Shown here piece by piece: positions 1-49,182 of a DNA stretch of 64,000 bases. The first letter of the stretch is position 1. Each line of letters starts with the position of its first letter. The notes under the pieces are model-generated. The model did no database searches, was not told where the DNA came from, and saw nothing but the letters and a program-made list of their open reading frames with translations. Position numbers and translations under genes: made by a program. Source of the stretch: a virus (taxonomy: Duplodnaviria > Heunggongvirae > Uroviricota > Caudoviricetes); the IMG/VR virus record IMGVR_UViG_3300010403_000021, positions 1 to 64,000 of that record; one strand, given 5' to 3'.

Positions 1-378
1 ATGGGTATTTCTATCACTAACTTTGGTGAATATTTGGCTGGGCTGGAAGAAGACGAAAGACCAAACAATGTTATTGTAGTAAGTCTAACTGATGGCCTAG
101 AGAATTCTTCCAAAGAATATACAGCTAATACGGTAAAAACAATGATCGAACATCAACGTGATGTTTATAGTTGGGATTTTGTTTTCCTTGCTGCTAATCA
201 AGATGCTGTACTGACTGCAAGCGAGTATGGCATTAGTCGTGGATCTTCTCTGACTTTTGGTGCTAATAGTGAAGGTATGCGTGAAAGTATGGCGGTTATG
301 GATTCATATGTCGCTGGTACACGATCCGGCCGTGGTTATGAAATTAGCGATGAAGATCGATATAAGAGTATGGGTTGA
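1..378 (+). CDS. vWA-domain protein, C-terminal fragment (5' truncated by window edge)
   Basis: VVSLTDGLENSS-type vWA strand/MIDAS-adjacent motif; ORF runs off window start. Confidence 0.45.
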   Translation: MGISITNFGEYLAGLEEDERPNNVIVVSLTDGLENSSKEYTANTVKTMIEHQRDVYSWDFVFLAANQDAVLTASEYGISRGSSLTFGANSEGMRESMAVMDSYVAGTRSGRGYEISDEDRYKSMG

Positions 379-443
379 CGCGCTAGTGTTGATATGCTAG
401 ACTAGTGATCTGGGAAATTCCGGTTCGAGTCCGGGCCAACCTC
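372..443 (+). ncRNA. tRNA-like element (T-arm TCCGGTTCGAGTCCGGG plus acceptor-like GGGTTGA/CCAACCT pairing); D/anticodon arms not canonical
   Basis: GGTTCGAGTCC T-loop consensus with 4-5 bp stem; putative 7-bp acceptor with G-U; overlaps promoter copy 1. Confidence 0.25.
375..403 (+). promoter_or_regulatory. promoter consensus copy 1: TTGACG-N17-TAGACT
   Basis: same -35/-10 architecture repeated >=10 times in window. Confidence 0.4.
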
Positions 444-596
444 TTAAAGGGGCAGGTAGAATAATTGGAATAATTCACCCGGAATCATGCCCTTATAACA
501 TAAAAGTAATGTACCAATCTTGTAAATTGGAAAATGGGGGGCGGTACCTCATAGGGGCTCTTTGCATTCGAACGCGTTTTACTGTATACTTTGTAT

Positions 597-1112
597 ATGA
601 ATCAGTGTTCGAATTGCCAGAAGGAAACTAAAAACAAAAAATACTGTAGTAGATCTTGTTCTGCGACAGTAAATAATAAAGGTATATTGAGAAATCAGCC
701 GGGCGGCACAAGAAAAGCCAGAGGTGACGTAAAATGCTTATATTGTTCTAGTGATATTCTAAGTAAGAATATAGGTAAATACTGTAGTGTTACCTGCCAT
801 AGAAGATTTGAAAATTCAATCTTATTAAATAAATGGCTTACTGGTGAGTGGGATGGATCATCATCGCAAGGTGCATCTAAAATAGTCAAAGACTATTTAT
901 TAAAACTATGCAACAATGAATGCTCTAAATGCGGTTGGAAAGAAATAAATCCAGTTACCAACAAAGTACCATTAGAACTCAACCATATTGATGGGAATAG
1001 TACGAATAATGTAATTTCAAATCTAGAAATAGTTTGTCCAAACTGTCATTCTCTTACTCCCAATTTTAGAGCATTAAATAAAAATAGTAAAAGGGGGTAC
1101 AGAAGAAAATGA
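597..1112 (+). CDS. HNH endonuclease with N-terminal CxxC Zn-ribbon repeats
   Basis: LELNHIDGNSTNNVISNLEIVCPNCHS HNH motif; ATG 597 in frame with track ORF 591 (TTG). Confidence 0.6.
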   Translation: MNQCSNCQKETKNKKYCSRSCSATVNNKGILRNQPGGTRKARGDVKCLYCSSDILSKNIGKYCSVTCHRRFENSILLNKWLTGEWDGSSSQGASKIVKDYLLKLCNNECSKCGWKEINPVTNKVPLELNHIDGNSTNNVISNLEIVCPNCHSLTPNFRALNKNSKRGYRRK

Positions 1113-1360
1113 TTTTAATAGAAGAAGTAGTAAAGCCAAAAGAACTTGGTTCAGACCATCTTATTTTTGATGGAAAATCTTGGCAAAATGTAATAGTCGT
1201 ATCTCATGGTATATACGAAACAAAAGATTCTGAAATTTCCATTAGTCTTTCCGATGGAACAAAAATTACTAAAAATATTTCAGATGATGTTAAAGCTTTT
1301 AAAGTATTAGATTATAACAAATCTACAAATTATTACCATGTTCCATTAGGGCCTAAGTAG
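1109..1360 (+). CDS. hypothetical protein
   Basis: ORF; start overlaps upstream stop (ATGA). Confidence 0.4.
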   Translation: MILIEEVVKPKELGSDHLIFDGKSWQNVIVVSHGIYETKDSEISISLSDGTKITKNISDDVKAFKVLDYNKSTNYYHVPLGPK

Positions 1361-1393
1361 CGAGCCGGGGGTTCGACTCCTGCATGTGGCTCT

Positions 1394-1738
1394 TTGTTAT
1401 TAACTATCAAAGGATATATGATGGCTGAAGCCAGTTTGAATAAAGTTCAAGTAGCTCGTCCAGTTGTGTATGATACAGTTGATGAAGTAAATCTTAGAAT
1501 GTCTCTATCAGAAGCAAAGTTTATTGCCGCTCTTATGTCAAGAGTGGGTGGAAATCCAGAAAATAGCATGAGAAAACATGCCGATTCTATTATTGATGCA
1601 CTGTCACCAGTTGTTGGTAGACGTCATTTTACCAATGATTGTTGGTTTGAAAATGGATACGATTGGGATGTACGTGCACACTTTAGTTTTGGTAATGATA
1701 CAGATGCAGATGACAGCACAAAGGAGTTTCAATGGTAA
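1394..1738 (+). CDS. hypothetical protein
   Basis: ORF, + strand gene string. Confidence 0.4.
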   Translation: MLLTIKGYMMAEASLNKVQVARPVVYDTVDEVNLRMSLSEAKFIAALMSRVGGNPENSMRKHADSIIDALSPVVGRRHFTNDCWFENGYDWDVRAHFSFGNDTDADDSTKEFQW

Positions 1739-1893
1739 ATTTACCAGATCCATTTCCGTTTAAAGTAAGTTTCGATTTCTCTTCACATGTTGGTTCTTCA
1801 AAGAATCAAACAAAAGGATTCAAGACGGCAAGAGATCGTGAAAAATGGCTTGTAGCGAATAGAAATAATCTAAAGAATGTAAAAAAGATTTAA
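1735..1893 (+). CDS. small hypothetical protein (52 aa)
   Basis: ATG overlaps previous stop (ATGGTAA); not in ORF track (<60 aa). Confidence 0.3.
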   Translation, partial: VNLPDPFPFKVSFDFSSHVGSSKNQTKGFKTARDREKWLVANRNNLKNVKKI

Positions 1894-1949
1894 GTTTAAA
1901 ATCCTTTAATTGGTGGTATACTATAAGAGCCAATTAAGGAGGGTTATAA

Positions 1950-2366
1950 TTGACAGATTCAAATAACTCCCAAATTTATCTGGCGATTAGAGATTTAGCA
2001 GACACTATGGTGTTTAAATTTGAATCTCTAAGAGATGAATTGCGGGAGGTGAAACGTAGAATGGCAGATCTTAATCAAAGCATTGAAGACCTTCGTGTTG
2101 CAGTCGCTGATGTTGCTGTTCGTGTAGCTGCATTGACTGGTCCTTTACAGGATCAATTACGTGAACTAGAAGCAGCTTTGGCAGCAGAAAGAGAAGCAGC
2201 GGTAGTATTGGCAGCAACAGAAGATGCTGAAGACGTACAACAGAATGCTGATCTTGCAGACGCACGTGCTCGTGTTGATGCAGCTCTAGCTGATGCTCAG
2301 TCAGCAGCAGACAATATTGAGGGTGAAGTTGCAAGACTAAATCAGGTTGCAGCTCCAGTAGTCTGA
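1950..2366 (+). CDS. Ala/Glu-rich coiled-coil protein (TTG start)
   Basis: strong SD AAGGAGGG 6 nt upstream of TTG; heptad-like A/L/E/R-rich sequence. Confidence 0.45.
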   Translation: MTDSNNSQIYLAIRDLADTMVFKFESLRDELREVKRRMADLNQSIEDLRVAVADVAVRVAALTGPLQDQLRELEAALAAEREAAVVLAATEDAEDVQQNADLADARARVDAALADAQSAADNIEGEVARLNQVAAPVV

Positions 2367-47708: not shown

Positions 47709-48308
47709 ATGGATCTATTCGAGGCCTGGCCCAAAACTGCACGTGGTTTTGGGCCAGCTCTTTACACAGAAAAGCTTGATGGCTCAAATGTGGCTGTTAT
47801 CTTTGAACGTCGTTATGGTACTGAAGCATTTGCCGATATGAATAACGTTGTCATTAAAGATACAAACACCGGTGAATTGTTTATTATTCATGTGGCAGCC
47901 CAGACACGTACTCAAATGGCCTTTATTGAAGATGATCAAGTTGGTATTGCACAATGGGTTGCAGATCGTAAGTATAGTTTGGTTCGCGATCTATATAATT
48001 TCAACCGTGGTGCTGATCTTGAACGTCATTATGGTGAGTATGTCAAGGGCAAAGGTCTCAAAGTTCCACATGTCTTTCTGTTCAATGCTTACCGTTGGCG
48101 TGAGGCTGAGTTTGCCACTGAGGGGCTATCGGTTGTGCCGGTACTCTATGAGGGCGAACACTCTTACGAACAGCTTACAGACACGCTGAGAGACCTTGAG
48201 CTTAACGGCTCACGAGTGCTTGACTCACCAGCGGAAGGCGTGATAGTCTTCCACAAGAACGACAAGACATCCAAAAAGTACTTCTGCCAAGGACAAGGAC
48301 GAAAATAA
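47709..48308 (+). CDS. putative nucleotidyltransferase/ligase-like protein with KxDG motif
   Basis: YTEKLDGSNVAV resembles ligase/capping-enzyme motif I; short (199 aa). Confidence 0.3.
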   Translation: MDLFEAWPKTARGFGPALYTEKLDGSNVAVIFERRYGTEAFADMNNVVIKDTNTGELFIIHVAAQTRTQMAFIEDDQVGIAQWVADRKYSLVRDLYNFNRGADLERHYGEYVKGKGLKVPHVFLFNAYRWREAEFATEGLSVVPVLYEGEHSYEQLTDTLRDLELNGSRVLDSPAEGVIVFHKNDKTSKKYFCQGQGRK

Positions 48309-48309
48309 T

Positions 48310-48570
48310 ATGAAGGTCTGTGATTTTTGCAATAGTTACTGCAATTCCGGAAACCTCAACAAGACTCAGTACAATTTTTACTACGGTGGCAATCTTGTAG
48401 GATCATCTTACCTTCGTGATCGGGAATTCACTAATAGTGAATTCATTGTCATTGGGGATGGTGTTTACAGAGTCGCCAGTGTGAAGGATATCAATGATGT
48501 TAGGGGCAGTAAGATTGCCATTGGTGTGATTCTGGATTGGTTGGGCCGCTATGAGAATCCTCAGTCATGA
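48310..48570 (+). CDS. hypothetical protein
   Basis: ORF. Confidence 0.35.
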   Translation: MKVCDFCNSYCNSGNLNKTQYNFYYGGNLVGSSYLRDREFTNSEFIVIGDGVYRVASVKDINDVRGSKIAIGVILDWLGRYENPQS

Positions 48571-48829
48571 CTTTAAAGTATCGGACAAACTGAGCACTTC
48601 TCTTTGTGCTCATACCGCCCGTGTTGGTGAAATCAAATTGGTGCTGATTGTCAGTTATGGTGAGCCATTTAGTTGTACCGCAGAACGTAGAATCTATAGC
48701 AAGAGTTATAAGTGGAGTGGTACAACTAAGCATCTAATGCAAAACATCAGAAAAATGGTATACAAAACACCTGAAACTGATGATCCAATTATTTTGGAAG
48801 CACTATCAGCATTAAGTGATGTATATTAA
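48551..48829 (+). CDS. hypothetical protein
   Basis: ORF. Confidence 0.3.
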   Translation: MRILSHDFKVSDKLSTSLCAHTARVGEIKLVLIVSYGEPFSCTAERRIYSKSYKWSGTTKHLMQNIRKMVYKTPETDDPIILEALSALSDVY

Positions 48830-48903
48830 TTTGCATAATATGTCTTTTCCACATAGAATATATCTAGCTCCTTAGATATATCTAGGAAAGGAGGAGACAG
48901 AAT

Positions 48904-49095
48904 ATGGCAACAACATCAATTAATGATGCCAATCTACAACCTGTGGAAACAGCAGAGGTTATCAATCTCAAAAGACGTGAAGTTTATGAAACAGCCGTTC
49001 GTGCTCAGACAATGGGTTTGAATGATGCTAACTTCACAGATAGAGATAGAGGTCTCTATGCGGATACTCACCGCTCACAGAGTGCTAATCTCTGA
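48904..49095 (+). CDS. hypothetical protein
   Basis: SD AGGAGGAG. Confidence 0.4.
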   Translation: MATTSINDANLQPVETAEVINLKRREVYETAVRAQTMGLNDANFTDRDRGLYADTHRSQSANL

Positions 49096-49114
49096 GTAAA
49101 ATAGTAATTGAGCT

Positions 49115-49140
49115 AAGGCCACCCTTAACGGGGTGGCCTT
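49115..49140 (+). terminator. 10-bp hairpin AAGGCCACCC-TTAACG-GGGTGGCCTT
   Basis: perfect inverted repeat after stop, followed by T-containing tract. Confidence 0.5.
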
Positions 49141-49153
49141 AGTGCTTTAAGAC

Positions 49154-49182
49154 TTGTGTTGATCTTGACGACATGCTAGGCT
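49154..49182 (+). promoter_or_regulatory. promoter variant: TTGTGT-N17-TAGGCT
   Basis: weaker -35; followed by SD GGAGG and ATG 49211. Confidence 0.3.

What the first reader, a model, noticed from the sequence alone, without database searches (positions are those of the whole stretch)
375..49182. Recurrent phage promoter TTGAC(A/T)-N17-TAGACT with an actinobacterial-type -10 and leaderless gene starts
At least 10 copies share the pattern (375, 2669, 4702, 15637, 20360, 27159, 27746, 36088, 43388, 44109; weaker at 49154). The -10 hexamer TAGACT/TAGGCT fits TANNNT rather than TATAAT. In three cases the ATG lies exactly 7-8 nt after the -10 (2705, 36123, 43422), which implies leaderless mRNAs. 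Leaderless transcripts, TANNNT promoters and the WhiB-like gene (40564) together point to an actinobacterial host despite ~37% GC, for example a low-GC freshwater or marine actinobacterial lineage. The motif GCTAGACTAG is near-palindromic and might also bind a regulator.
Basis: seen in the sequence. Interest (0 to 1): 0.7.

Follow-up and report, generated by a model that had tools for sequence, protein, structure and literature searches.

The report
Host-type promoters of an actinobacterial phage
The repeated motif is a real set of about twenty promoters that an uncultured, tRNA-rich relative of Streptomyces phages most likely uses to recruit its actinobacterial host's ordinary RNA polymerase, several placed so that the message starts at the ATG; it is a well-supported but ordinary kind of element.

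Summary
TTGACW-N17-TAGRCT occurs 5 times exactly (0.09 expected) and 12 times with one mismatch (1.15 expected), always on the coding strand. The looser TTGAC.-N16-18-TANNNT occurs 33 times on + and 8 on − (shuffles 4.6). None of the 11 strict sites lies deep inside an ORF. Against a relative with about 90% nucleotide identity, the two hexamers show 0 substitutions in 192 positions and the spacers 22 in 272. At two sites the spacer and upstream DNA are unrelated, yet TTGACA is still 17-18 nt from TAGACT. The best reading is strong promoters for the host's primary sigma factor (SigA/HrdB type): consensus −35, TGN extended −10, and an A at the 7th nt after the −10. The core hexamers equal those of M. 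tuberculosis rrnAP3 (TTGACT-N18-TAGACT), and GCTAGACTAG fits the corynebacterial extended −10 GNTANANTNG, which explains the apparent palindrome. The promoters precede tRNAs, non-coding leaders, Shine-Dalgarno-led genes and four or five ATGs at the 7th-8th nt (leaderless layout). That layout recurs at two annotated genes of Streptomyces phage Blueeyedbeauty. An actinobacterial host is supported; a low-GC aquatic host is not. This is a new member of a known kind, of modest interest.

The parts
375..403 (+). Promoter TTGACG-N17-(TGC)TAGACT(AG). It precedes an 85-nt leader with a T-arm-like sequence and a tRNA-like gene at 489-559.
   Evidence: In the relative the upstream DNA and spacer are unrelated, but TTGACA sits 18 nt from TAGACT. 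The TGA stop of the upstream ORF lies inside the −35.
2669..2697 (+). Promoter TTGACT-N17-(TGC)TAGACT(AG), with the same hexamers as Mtb rrnAP3. It serves the leaderless candidate ORF 2705-2899.
   Evidence: Against the relative there are 4 spacer substitutions and 0 in the hexamers.
2705..2899 (+). Leaderless candidate ORF of 64 aa. The A of the ATG is the 8th nt after the −10, and there is no Shine-Dalgarno sequence.
   Evidence: The ORF is kept in the relative, with substitutions by codon position of 1,1,3. No homologue was found in phage isolates.
4702..4730 (+). Promoter TTGACA-N17-(AGC)TAGACT(AG). It precedes a 268-nt structured non-coding stretch, tRNA-Leu (5005) and the Ro60/TROVE gene (5180-6784).
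   Evidence: Against the relative there are 3 spacer substitutions and 0 in the hexamers.
6788..6816 (+). Promoter-like TTGACC-N17-TATAAT in front of a LAGLIDADG homing endonuclease. An ATG at 6824 is the 8th nt after the −10, a leaderless option; the alternative start is 6815.
   Evidence: The whole insert is absent from the relative, so conservation cannot be tested.
15637..15665 (+). Promoter TTGACA-N17-(TGC)TAGACT. It precedes a ~140-nt leader and the Shine-Dalgarno-led ORF 15806-15964.
   Evidence: Against the relative there are 2 spacer substitutions and 0 in the hexamers.
17228..17256 (+). Promoter TTGACA-N17-TAAGAT, 16 nt upstream of tRNA-Leu (17273).
   Evidence: The TGA stop of ORF 16077-17231 lies inside the −35. 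The region is not homologous in the relative.
19843..19871 (+). Promoter TTGACA-N17-(TG)TAGAAT, followed by an AGGAGG-led small ORF and then tRNA-Trp.
   Evidence: Against the relative there are 3 spacer substitutions and 0 in the hexamers.
20360..20388 (+). Promoter TTGACA-N17-(TGC)TAGACT(AGC), followed by the invariant leader hairpin GTACCGCCCGAAAGGG and tRNA-Ala (20413).
   Evidence: The relative has an unrelated spacer and upstream DNA but keeps both hexamers at 17 nt. The same promoter-hairpin-tRNA cassette occurs in Streptomyces phage Blueeyedbeauty (A3).
21346..21374 (+). Promoter TTGACA-N17-(TG)TAAAAT, 11 nt upstream of tRNA-Gly (21386).
22267..22295 (+). Promoter TTGACA-N17-TAAGCT, upstream of ORF 22356-22529.
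24010..24038 (+). Promoter-like TTGACA-N17-TACACT in the last 55 nt of ORF 23856-24065, 28 nt before the next Shine-Dalgarno-led start.
   Evidence: Against the relative there are 2 spacer substitutions and 0 in the hexamers.
27159..27188 (+). Promoter TTGACA-N18-(TGC)TAGACT(AGC), 11 nt upstream of tRNA-Ile (27200).
   Evidence: The upstream gene's TAG stop directly abuts the −35.
27747..27775 (+). Promoter TTGACA-N17-(TGA)TAGAGT, followed by an AGGAGG-led ORF.
   Evidence: Against the relative there are 4 spacer substitutions and 0 in the hexamers.
36088..36116 (+). Promoter TTGACA-N17-(TG)TAGGCT(AG). It serves the leaderless candidate ORF 36123-36266 and the genes downstream.
36123..36266 (+). 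Leaderless candidate ORF of 47 aa, hydrophobic. The A of the ATG is the 7th nt after the −10.
   Evidence: Coding status is unproven: substitutions by codon position against the relative are 0,3,1.
40376..40405 (+). Doubtful site: TTGACA-N18-TACAAT after a terminator-like hairpin. Its −10 overlaps the ATG (40404) of the small ORF upstream of WhiB, so it cannot serve that ORF.
   Evidence: The start at 40404 is supported by weak homology to Blueeyedbeauty gene 168.
40564..40875 (+). WhiB-like transcription factor gene. This is a host-range marker, not part of the promoter set.
   Evidence: Pfam PF02467, 43 bits. It is 45% identical to the WhiB of Streptomyces BE phages, aligned from residue 1.
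41525..41553 (+). Promoter TTGACA-N17-TACAAT, with the same −10 as Mtb sigAP. It serves the best leaderless candidate, ORF 41560-42003.
   Evidence: The TGA stop of ORF 41280-41528 lies inside the −35.
41560..42003 (+). Best leaderless candidate: a 147-aa multi-pass membrane ORF that exactly fills the gap between its neighbours. The A of the ATG is the 7th nt after the −10, and there is no room for a Shine-Dalgarno sequence.
   Evidence: Substitutions by codon position against the relative are 2,1,6, and the ORF is intact there.
43388..43415 (+). Promoter TTGACT-N16-(TGC)TAGACT, directly after the GGCCCCGAAAGGGGC hairpin.
43422..43613 (+). Cys-rich small ORF. It is either leaderless from ATG 43422 (7th nt after the −10) or starts at the in-frame ATG 43443 behind GAAGGAG, giving a 21-nt leader.
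   Evidence: The two starts cannot be told apart from sequence.
44109..44137 (+). Promoter TTGACC-N17-(TGC)TAGGCT(AG), followed by the AAAGGAG-led ORF 44165-44413.
   Evidence: Against the relative there are 3 spacer substitutions and 0 in the hexamers (A1).
49154..49182 (+). Extended −10 promoter TTGTGT-N17-(TGC)TAGGCT(AG) after a terminator-like hairpin, followed by the GGAGG-led ORF 49211-49774.
   Evidence: In the relative TTGTGT and TGCTAGGCT are kept, while the TTGACG inside the spacer mutates to TCGACG (A6).
50913..50940 (+). Doubtful site: a full signature GCTTGACT-N16-(TG)TAGACT(AGC), but the next ORF's ATG (50944) is only 3 nt after the −10.
   Evidence: It lies in the last codons of ORF 50760-50942, so its conservation is uninformative.
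54281..54309 (+). Possible promoter TTGACA-N17-(TGC)TACCTT. It is the only candidate in the high-GC part and lies in a 1-kb ORF-free stretch.
   Evidence: In the relative the −35 is kept, there are 2 spacer substitutions, and the −10 changes TACCTT to TACTTT, which is still TANNNT (A4).

Best explanation
The motifs are promoters read by the host RNA polymerase carrying its primary sigma factor (group 1 sigma-70 family: SigA in mycobacteria and corynebacteria, HrdB in Streptomyces). The phage is an uncultured, lytic-type, tRNA-rich relative of the Streptomyces cluster BE phages (Stanwilliamsviridae).

The proposed mechanism, inferred from what is known of this sigma family:
- Sigma region 4 binds the near-perfect −35 (gc)TTGACA.
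- Region 3 reads the TG of the extended −10.
- Region 2 reads TAGACT/TAGGCT, or variants such as TACAAT, TAGAAT and TAAGAT, 16-18 (mostly 17) nt downstream.
- Transcription starts at the A that sits 7 nt after the −10 in 13 of 19 sites.

The promoters combine every element that makes an actinobacterial promoter strong. Their core hexamers are those of an rRNA promoter, M. tuberculosis rrnAP3.

They sit exactly at gene boundaries; the TGA inside TTGACA is the upstream gene's stop codon at eight sites. This cuts the 52-kb low-GC tRNA/small-gene arm into many short units. Some units begin with a tRNA behind a 5' hairpin, some with a structured non-coding leader, and some with a Shine-Dalgarno-led gene. 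In four or five cases the unit begins with an AUG at +1, so the mRNA would be leaderless and translated without a Shine-Dalgarno sequence, as is common in Actinobacteria.

What is shown here: the motif's excess, strand, placement and purifying selection; the geometry; and the family and host affinities. What is inferred: which polymerase and sigma factor bind, the actual start sites, promoter strength and timing.
For: Excess and strand bias.

Placement at gene boundaries: 0 of 11 strict sites deep in ORFs, p=9e-5; site-by-site reading.

Selection against the ~90% identical relative: 0 of 192 hexamer positions substituted against 22 of 272 spacer positions (Fisher p=6.6e-6). At 375 and 20360 the spacer and upstream DNA are non-homologous but TTGACA is retained 17-18 nt from TAGACT. 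At 49154 a decoy TTGACG inside the spacer mutates while TTGTGT and TGCTAGGCT stay.

Geometry: spacer of 17 nt in 14 of 19 sites; G at −14 in 13 of 19; A at the 7th nt after the −10 in 13 of 19.

−10 interior: among boundary-located hits of a scan that did not specify the interior, G at position 3 in 14 of 23 and C at position 5 in 12 of 23, against genome frequencies of 0.23 and 0.18 (p about 1e-4 each). Hits deep inside ORFs lack this.

Literature: C. glutamicum sigma-A consensus TTGNCA plus GNTANANTNG (PMC3917453). S. coelicolor −10 TANNNT, −35 NTGACC, 21% leaderless mRNAs with AUG preferred (PMC4895711). Mtb TANNNT, with TGN extended −10 rare and strongest, and purine start sites (PMC3898074). 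Mtb rrnAP3 is TTGACT-N18-TAGACT and the sigAP −10 is TACAAT (PMC4176334; PMC5302886).

Family context: Blueeyedbeauty has 67 hits on + and 7 on − of the same pattern, concentrated in its tRNA and small-gene arms. No sigma factor or RNA polymerase is among its 277 annotated features. No sigma domain was found in the window ORFs tested.

Leaderless layout: ATG/GTG codons opening ORFs of 40 aa or more pile up at the 7th-8th nt after the −10 (5 sites against 0.83 expected, p=0.0017). In Blueeyedbeauty the annotated genes 41 (32901) and 208 (104667) start at exactly that distance from a −10.
Against: There is no transcript data, so start sites, strength and the identity of the sigma factor are all inferred.

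Three full-signature sites do not fit a simple promoter-then-gene picture. At 40376 the start codon overlaps the −10, and at 6788 it does so if the start is ATG 6815 rather than 6824. At 50913 the ATG follows the −10 by only 3 nt.

Ten hits of the broad pattern lie inside ORFs and may be chance or internal promoters.

The conserved 11-bp block TGCTAGRCTAG is tighter than sigma contacts alone require. In this window its flanking TGC and AG accompany only TAGRCT −10s (10 of 11 against 0 of 8), so something more than sigma recognition, or recent common descent of these cassettes, could be involved.

With only one close relative, the conservation test rests on a single pairwise comparison.
Confidence: 0.85

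Rival explanations
1. The 11-bp near-palindrome (G)CTAG-N-CTAG(C) overlapping the −10 is also the operator of a phage- or host-encoded dimeric regulator, or a site favoured by a WhiB-sigma complex. It would switch a subclass of promoters on or off during infection. This would add to, not replace, sigma recognition.
For: TGC and AG flank TAGRCT in 10 of 11 sites but none of the 8 other −10 types. All 7 copies of CTAGNCTAG in the window are at promoters. 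Site 43388 carries a different but also symmetric GCTAGA-CT-TCTAGC. The phage encodes a WhiB-like factor; from the abstract of PMC13013590, Wbl proteins act through the primary sigma factor.
Against: GCTAGACTAG fits every specified position of the corynebacterial sigma-A extended −10 GNTANANTNG, so the symmetry follows from known polymerase preferences. 'AG' after the −10 also follows non-symmetric −10s (TAAGAT, TATGAT, TAACAT, TATGCT) in Blueeyedbeauty. In the relative the flanks are not specially protected: TGC becomes TGT at 20360 and AG becomes TG at 49154. No stand-alone copies exist away from promoters, and no candidate DNA-binding regulator was tied to the motif.
Confidence: 0.12
2. The motifs are recognised by a phage-encoded sigma factor or by host polymerase re-programmed by a phage protein, rather than by the unmodified host primary sigma factor.
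For: Only 64 kb of a genome of about 137 kb was examined, and many ORFs have no recognisable family. The motif is more uniform than host promoters usually are.
Against: The −35 is the universal group-1 consensus TTGACA. The −10 hexamers are those of known SigA promoters. No sigma domain was found in the window ORFs tested, and none is annotated in the complete genome of Blueeyedbeauty, which uses the same architecture.
Confidence: 0.05
3. The motif copies are not promoters. They would be a dispersed repeat, such as a recombination or mobile-element end or a packaging or replication signal, or a by-product of composition and codon usage on the coding strand.
For: Several homology breakpoints between the window and its relative fall within about 25 nt of a site (375, 4702, 19843, 20360, 27159). 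The strand bias could in principle come from coding constraints.
Against: Only two hexamers at a fixed distance are conserved, while the 17 nt between them are free to vary or be replaced. That is the signature of a bipartite protein-DNA contact, not of a repeat or an RNA element. The sites avoid ORF interiors. Dinucleotide shuffles do not reproduce them. A purine sits at the expected +1, and tRNAs or start codons follow at promoter-like distances.
Confidence: 0.03
4. On the host: the phage infects a low-GC freshwater or marine actinobacterium, such as an acI/Nanopelagicales-like lineage, rather than a GC-rich soil actinomycete.
For: The main arm is 36-42% GC, far below any cultured relative (47-48%). 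The lineage is rare in IMG/VR and has no near match among 50,697 phage records.
Against: All informative proteins have their best matches in Streptomyces phages whose GC is already far below their hosts' roughly 70% (own knowledge). At least 25 tRNAs, many reading A/U-ending codons (Lys-UUU, Leu-UAG, Arg-UCU, Ala-UGC, Pro-UGG, Gly-UCC, Gln-UUG), suggest a codon mismatch with a GC-rich host. The −10 keeps G and C at its interior positions against the genome's AT bias. The sampling environment of the relative contig could not be established with these tools.
Confidence: 0.15

Closest known systems
Mycobacterium tuberculosis rrnAP3 (principal rRNA promoter) and sigAP, both SigA-dependent
   Same: rrnAP3 reads cTTGACT-N18-TAGACT (PMC5302886; PMC4176334). 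These are the very hexamers of sites 2669, 43388 and 50913, and differ by one −35 base from the other TAGACT sites. The sigAP −10, TACAAT, equals that of sites 41525 and 40376.
   Different: The phage sites mostly use a 17-nt spacer. They add a TG extended −10 and a discriminator that starts with AG and is A-rich, where rrnAP3 has GGCAGGG. They are phage-borne, and dependence on RbpA and CarD is unknown.
Actinobacterial primary-sigma promoter consensus: C. glutamicum TTGNCA + GNTANANTNG; S. coelicolor NTGACC + TANNNT; M. tuberculosis TANNNT
   Same: The phage block GCTAGACTAG satisfies every specified position of GNTANANTNG. It also shares the TANNNT core, a purine start about 7 nt downstream, and coexistence with leaderless mRNAs that prefer AUG.
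   Different: Host promoters have a weak or absent −35 and rarely carry TGN (7% in Mtb). The phage set has an almost invariant TTGACA and frequent TGN, so it is idealised, strong versions in a 39% GC genome.
Promoter layout of Streptomyces cluster BE phages (e.g. Blueeyedbeauty, Stanwilliamsviridae), seen here in the sequence; no description was found in the papers searched
   Same: TTGACA-N17/18-TANNNT occurs 67 times on + and 7 on −, concentrated in the tRNA and small-gene arms. The same promoter-GTACCGCCCGAAAGGG hairpin-tRNA cassette is present. Two annotated genes start at the 7th-8th nt after a −10.
   Different: The −10 hexamers there are more varied (TAAGAT, TATGAT, TAGTCT) and 'ggg' rather than 'gc' precedes the −35. 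Proteins are only 39-58% identical, and GC is 47-48% against 39%.
Strong host-sigma-70 early promoters of large lytic coliphages (T5 early promoters, T4 early promoters); own knowledge, not checked here
   Same: The strategy is the same: many near-consensus host-type promoters, all co-directional, in front of small early genes and tRNA clusters, capturing unmodified host polymerase.
   Different: The host phylum and −10 consensus differ (TATAAT there). No leaderless starts are known there. The timing of the present promoters is unknown.

Membership tests
Primary (group 1) sigma-70-family promoter | −35 hexamer close to TTGACA | tested here: met
   TTGAC in 18 of 19 sites, with A at the sixth position in 13 of 19. 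0 of 96 −35 positions are substituted in the relative.
Primary (group 1) sigma-70-family promoter | −10 hexamer with T1, A2 and T6 (TANNNT/TATAAT) | tested here: met
   19 of 19 by construction of the scan. Independently, 0 of 96 −10 positions are substituted in the relative at the 16 tested sites. The one change, at 54281, falls on an N position.
Primary (group 1) sigma-70-family promoter | Spacer of 16-18 bp, free in sequence | tested here: met
   Spacers are 17 nt (14 sites), 18 nt (3) and 16 nt (2). Spacers carry 22 substitutions in 272 positions and are wholly replaced at two sites.
Primary (group 1) sigma-70-family promoter | Located upstream of, and co-oriented with, genes | tested here: met
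   All sites are on the coding strand. 0 of 11 strict sites are deep in ORFs. tRNAs, Shine-Dalgarno-led genes or ATGs follow. Exceptions are 40376 and 50913.
Primary (group 1) sigma-70-family promoter | Transcription starts 6-8 nt after the −10; holoenzyme binds and melts the DNA | not testable with these tools
   The only proxy is an A at the 7th nt after the −10 in 13 of 19 sites. This needs 5'-end mapping or in-vitro transcription.
Actinobacterial SigA/HrdB-type promoter specifically | Extended −10 of the form GNTANANTNG, with G/C tolerated inside the −10 | tested here: met
   10 of the 11 TAGRCT sites read G-N-TA-N-A/G-N-T-A-G. Enrichment of G at position 3 and C at position 5 has p about 1e-4 each. 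The hexamers equal Mtb rrnAP3.
Actinobacterial SigA/HrdB-type promoter specifically | Host is an actinobacterium | tested here: inconclusive
   The evidence is indirect but consistent: a WhiB gene, and best matches of RIIA, Ro60 and WhiB in Streptomyces phages, with all WhiB matches in actinophages. No direct host link was found.
Leaderless mRNA | Transcription start coincides with the A of an AUG (or GUG) start codon | not testable with these tools
   The proxy is met: the A of the ATG is the 7th nt after the −10 at 36123, 41560 and 43422, and the 8th at 2705 and 6824. This pile-up has p=0.0017.
Leaderless mRNA | No Shine-Dalgarno sequence, and no better start downstream | tested here: inconclusive
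   Met for 2705 and 41560. Weakly met for 36123, where an AGG lies 3 nt upstream. Not met for 43422, where the in-frame ATG 43443 sits behind GAAGGAG. At 6824 the alternative ATG 6815 has an AGGA upstream.
Leaderless mRNA | The ORF is a real gene | tested here: inconclusive
   41560-42003 is convincing: it fits between its neighbours, is intact in the relative, and 6 of 9 substitutions are at third codon positions. 2705 and 36123 are too short and too conserved to judge. No homologues were found.
Operator / dyad-symmetric regulator site | Dyad symmetry conserved beyond what polymerase contacts explain, with a cognate regulator | tested here: not met
   The symmetry is fully accounted for by GNTANANTNG. 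The outer C/G is present in only 4 of 11 sites. The flanks are not specially conserved in the relative. No regulator was identified.

The most novel reading that the evidence does not exclude
The invariant TGCTAGRCTAG block defines a separately regulated promoter subclass. It would be a SigA −10 fused to a dyad site for a phage factor, or one tuned to the phage WhiB-sigma-A complex, giving temporal control. The promoter cassettes, sometimes with their 5' hairpin and tRNA, would also be the units at which this mosaic phage lineage exchanges modules.
Probability: 0.1. Interest if true: 0.5.

Novelty: new member of a known kind. Interest (0 to 1): 0.3.

Why it matters
The result gives a transcription map of about twenty sites for an uncultured phage lineage with 39% GC. 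That lineage is otherwise known only from Streptomyces cluster BE isolates, for which I found no promoter description in the searched literature.

It shows that these phages give individual tRNA genes their own rRNA-promoter-like signals and a conserved 5' hairpin. It also suggests that leaderless translation, a host trait, is used by the phage.

Practically, the sites are candidate compact strong promoters for actinobacterial synthetic biology. The promoter type is also a host-phylum clue that does not depend on GC content.

None of this changes current understanding of transcription.

Tried and rejected
It says nothing about how widespread the motif is. Only two of those loci belong to the relative, and few share any protein with the window.

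2. A profile search with RIIA found only the relative, two cultured phages and one 36-kb contig without the tRNA/promoter pattern. No intermediate relatives were available for deeper footprinting.

3. An exact-protein look-up of RIIB and a text search for the metagenome id failed. The environment and host of the relative stay unknown.

4. Rfam at gathering and at E≤1 found only tRNAs. There was no Y RNA or other family for the transcripts predicted from 375, 4702 and 15637. Folding gave z=−2.95 only for 4737-5004.

5. tblastn with the leaderless ORFs 41560 and 2705 found no homologue in 50,697 phage records.

6. The built-in low-stringency sigma-70 scan is too permissive to be useful: 80 sites against 64 expected per 20 kb. 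It does show no excess at all in 52-64 kb.

7. CTAG avoidance as an explanation for the motif's salience was rejected. CTAG is not depleted: 234 observed against 190 expected.

8. Coincidence of mosaic breakpoints with promoters (5 of 19 within about 25 nt, roughly 2 expected by my rough estimate) is too weak to claim.

9. The query protein 52500-53609 found no relative. L003 was at first not readable by scripts, so three sites were checked through DNA alignment instead.

Full report

Yes. The pattern TTGACW-N17-TAGRCT has 5 exact matches against 0.09 expected. With one mismatch allowed it has 12 against 1.15 expected. Every match is on the + strand.

GCTAGACT alone occurs 8 times on + and never on −, against 1.25 expected. 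Reading the eleven quoted sites shows they are all there. Minor corrections: 27746 should be 27747; the spacer is 18 nt at 27159 and 16 nt at 43388; and 49154 has a poor −35 (TTGTGT).

An unbiased 8-mer count puts GCTAGACT, CTTGACAT and GAGCTTGA among the most over-represented strand-specific words, behind only tRNA T-arm words and a CCGAAAGG hairpin word.

A looser scan, TTGAC.-N16-18-TANNNT, finds 33 sites on + and 8 on −. Two hundred dinucleotide shuffles give 4.6±2.1, with a maximum of 12.

**2. Surroundings**

All of about 105 crude gene calls are on the + strand. The window holds 25 ARAGORN tRNAs, plus three more tRNA-like hits from Rfam.

Recognisable genes form an RNA-centred set:
- Ro60/TROVE, an SPFH protein, rIIA/rIIB, an Rnl1-like RNA ligase and PNKP.
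- A second RNA ligase, a SpoU methylase, HNH endonucleases and a WhiB-like factor.
- Thg1, RlaP and a C92 amidase.

There is no near-identical phage in 50,697 records. By protein, RIIA (39%), Ro60 (55-58%) and WhiB (45%) all match best the Streptomyces cluster BE phages of the Stanwilliamsviridae. Every WhiB match is in an actinobacteriophage. Blueeyedbeauty has the same arm of interspersed tRNAs and small genes with Ro-like, band-7, RNA ligase, PNK, rIIA/B and WhiB genes.

One IMG/VR contig of 137.6 kb is a mosaic relative at about 90% nucleotide identity. I fetched 55 kb of it.

GC is 0.36-0.42 up to about 52.4 kb and 0.48-0.51 beyond. The step is also present in the relative, so it is real. 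The motif is confined to the low-GC part, apart from one candidate at 54281.

**3. Evidence that the motifs are functional**

*Placement.* None of the 11 strict sites lies 60 nt or more inside a + strand ORF, although 57% of positions do (p=9e-5). For the broad pattern it is 10 of 33 (p=0.002).

Read site by site, the −35 hexamer's TGA is the stop codon of the upstream ORF at eight sites (375, 4702, 15637, 17228, 20360, 27747, 41525, 44109). The other sites lie within about 60 nt of a gene end.

*Purifying selection.* Sixteen sites can be aligned to the relative. The two hexamers carry 0 substitutions in 192 positions. The spacers carry 22 in 272 (Fisher p=6.6e-6). The sites were defined in the window alone, so there is no ascertainment bias from the relative.

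At 375 and 20360 homology breaks inside the promoter. The relative has unrelated upstream DNA and an unrelated spacer, yet TTGACA sits 18 and 17 nt from TAGACT. At 49154 a decoy TTGACG inside the spacer mutates to TCGACG while TTGTGT and TGCTAGGCT are kept. At 54281 the only hexamer change, TACCTT to TACTTT, falls on an N of TANNNT.

A bipartite element with fixed spacing and a free spacer is the footprint of a sigma factor. It is not what a repeat or an RNA structure looks like.

*Geometry.*
- The spacer is 17 nt in 14 of 19 sites.
- 'gc' precedes the −35.
- T-G-C precedes the −10; G is at −14 in 13 of 19 sites.
- The 7th nucleotide after the −10 is A in 13 of 19 sites, the expected purine start.

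**4. What kind of promoter?**

The −35 is the universal group-1 consensus. The −10 interior is not AT-rich despite the AT-rich genome. Among boundary-located hits of the scan that left the interior free, G is at position 3 in 14 of 23 and C at position 5 in 12 of 23 (p about 1e-4 each). Hits deep in ORFs lack this bias.

The literature supports an actinobacterial reading:
- S. coelicolor promoters have −10 TANNNT and −35 NTGACC, and 21% of mRNAs are leaderless, mostly starting with AUG (PMC4895711).
- M. tuberculosis uses TANNNT. TGN is rare (7%) but marks the strongest promoters, and starts are purines (PMC3898074).
- The C. glutamicum sigma-A consensus is TTGNCA plus the extended −10 GNTANANTNG (PMC3917453).
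- The M. tuberculosis rRNA promoter rrnAP3 reads TTGACT-N18-TAGACT, and the sigAP −10 is TACAAT (PMC4176334; PMC5302886).

The phage block GCTAGACTAG fits every specified position of GNTANANTNG. Sites 2669, 43388 and 50913 carry exactly the rrnAP3 hexamers. Sites 41525 and 40376 carry the sigAP −10.

So the phage promoters look like idealised, strong SigA/HrdB promoters. TANNNT by itself is not specific to Actinobacteria. The phylum assignment rests on these finer matches, on WhiB and on the relatives.

No sigma domain was found in the window ORFs tested. None is annotated in the 277 features of Blueeyedbeauty. That genome has the same architecture: 67 hits on + against 7 on −, concentrated in its tRNA and small-gene arms. 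Use of unmodified host polymerase is therefore the economical reading.

**5. What the promoters drive**

- tRNA or tRNA-like genes 11-85 nt downstream: 375, 17228, 20360, 21346, 27159.
- Structured or long non-coding leaders: 4702, followed by 268 nt (folding z=−2.95), then tRNA-Leu and Ro60; and 15637, followed by 140 nt.
- Shine-Dalgarno-led genes: 19843, 22267, 24010, 27747, 44109, 49154.
- ATGs at the predicted start site (next section).

The 20360 cassette is notable. It consists of promoter, then GTACCGCCCGAAAGGG hairpin, then tRNA. The hairpin is invariant between the window, the relative and Blueeyedbeauty, although the spacers are unrelated.

**6. Leaderless starts**

ATG/GTG codons that open ORFs of 40 aa or more pile up at the 7th-8th nt after the −10. 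There are 5 such sites against 0.83 expected from the other offsets (p=0.0017).

| Start | Promoter | Position of A of ATG after −10 | Assessment |
|---|---|---|---|
147-aa membrane ORF that fills the gap between its neighbours, intact in the relative, 6 of 9 substitutions at third codon positions. |
| 2705 | TTGACT-N17-TAGACT | 8th | 64 aa, no Shine-Dalgarno sequence; plausible. |
| 36123 | TTGACA-N17-TAGGCT | 7th | 47 aa, hydrophobic; possible but unproven as a gene. |
| 43422 | TTGACT-N16-TAGACT | 7th | Ambiguous: an in-frame ATG at 43443 follows GAAGGAG. |
| 6824 | TTGACC-N17-TATAAT | 8th | LAGLIDADG endonuclease, absent from the relative; a further candidate. |

In Blueeyedbeauty the annotated genes 41 (start 32901) and 208 (start 104667) begin at the 8th and 7th nt after TTGACT-N17-TATAAT and TTGACA-N18-TATTCT respectively. 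The layout is therefore shared with a cultured Streptomyces phage.

Three sites do not fit a simple picture. At 40376 the −10 overlaps the ATG of an ORF whose start is confirmed by weak homology. Site 6788 has the same problem if its start is 6815. At 50913 the ATG is only 3 nt after the −10.

**7. The palindrome**

(G)CTAG-N-CTAG(C) is real, and in this window its flanks accompany only TAGRCT −10s (10 of 11 against 0 of 8). However:
- It is fully explained by GNTANANTNG.
- 'AG' follows asymmetric −10s in Blueeyedbeauty.
- The flanks are not specially conserved in the relative.
- CTAG is not avoided in this genome, so the block is not made salient by CTAG rarity.

I keep a regulator site as a minor, non-exclusive rival (0.12).

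**8. Host**

An actinobacterial host is well supported indirectly. A low-GC aquatic host is not.

The cultured relatives are already far below their hosts in GC: 47-48% measured here, against roughly 70% for Streptomyces, which is general knowledge and was not checked here. The large tRNA set reading A/U-ending codons fits a codon mismatch with a GC-rich host. The −10 keeps G and C against the genome's bias. The genus cannot be resolved, and the origin of the relative contig could not be established.

**9. Verdict**

This is a new instance of a well-known kind of element: host primary-sigma promoters in a lytic phage, with actinobacterial leaderless starts. Interest is modest at 0.3. The value lies in a clean comparative footprint, the rRNA-promoter mimicry, the per-tRNA promoter-hairpin cassettes and a GC-independent clue to the host phylum.

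Noticed in passing
window 8817, 15165, 18294, 19999, 20400, 25343 (+); also L004 ~24150: Short GAAA-tetraloop hairpins (N3-6-CCGAAAGG-N3-6, e.g. AGCTAGCCGAAAGGCTAGC) end 2-6 nt before the 5' end of tRNA genes. CCGAAAGG occurs 10 times on + and once on −, against 0.77 expected. GTACCGCCCGAAAGGG is invariant between this phage, its relative and Streptomyces phage Blueeyedbeauty. This may be a pre-tRNA leader, a 5'-end protection element or a processing element.
   Followed up: partly
window ~52,412-52,540: There is a sharp GC step from about 39% to about 49% at an AT-rich junction with two direct repeats (ATAAATATATA..TTGTG). The step is conserved in the relative. The promoter motif and the tRNA cluster stop here. 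The sigma-70-like scan shows no excess beyond it (16 against 15.3 expected). The genes beyond are tightly packed, with TAGGGG-N-ATG junctions.
   Followed up: partly
window 53,610-54,650: A stretch of about 1 kb has no ORF and contains GGCCCCAACG…CGTTGGGGCC-type hairpins. It also holds the single TTGACA-N17-TACCTT candidate at 54281. Blueeyedbeauty has a comparable 1.5-kb gene-free gap at 123,069-124,575. It could be an origin, a packaging region or an ncRNA region.
   Followed up: no
window 4737-5004: A 268-nt non-coding stretch lies between promoter 4702 and tRNA-Leu/Ro60. It folds better than shuffles (z=−2.95) and has no Rfam match. Because bacterial Ro60 genes are usually next to Y RNAs (own knowledge), it is a candidate Y-RNA-like transcript. 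The 85-nt leader after promoter 375 contains a tRNA T-arm-like CCGGTTCGAGTCCGG.
   Followed up: partly
window 5180-6784, 10183-10938, 30601-33581, 34751-35335, 47670-48308: The window carries an unusually complete RNA repair and maturation set: Ro60/TROVE, Thg1 (tRNA-His guanylyltransferase), RlaP, an Rnl1-like ligase, PNKP, a SpoU methylase and a second RNA ligase, alongside 25+ tRNAs.
   Followed up: partly
window 375, 4702, 15637, 17228, 20360, 27747, 41525, 44109: The TGA within the −35 hexamer TTGACA serves as the stop codon of the upstream ORF, four times as GCT-TGA (Ala-stop). Gene ends and promoters are fused.
   Followed up: partly
window 6815-7243; 591-1112; 30027-30620; 45254-45751: There are several homing endonuclease genes: one LAGLIDADG and two clear HNH, plus one below-threshold HNH match at 591-1112. 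The LAGLIDADG gene, with its own TTGACC-N17-TATAAT, is absent from the relative.
   Followed up: partly
window 57311-57423; 29438-29507; 489-559; 15180-15250; 18493-18590: There are odd tRNA-like genes. One is a 113-nt Rfam tRNA hit in the high-GC part, possibly with an intron or insertion. One is an ARAGORN 'tRNA-???' with a 2-nt anticodon. Two are Rfam-only tRNA-like hits. One is a 98-nt tRNA-Tyr.
   Followed up: no
window 40324-40407: TAGACT without a recognisable −35 is followed after 6 nt by an ATG opening a 23-codon ORF. That ORF's TGA overlaps the ATG (ATGA) of ORF 40404, just upstream of WhiB. This may be a leaderless upstream mini-ORF coupled to the next gene.
   Followed up: no
window 395, 4693, 19893, ~20381, 27200 versus the relative: Homology breakpoints between the window and the relative fall in or within about 25 nt of promoters. 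This hints that promoter cassettes are module junctions, but the excess over chance is weak.
   Followed up: partly
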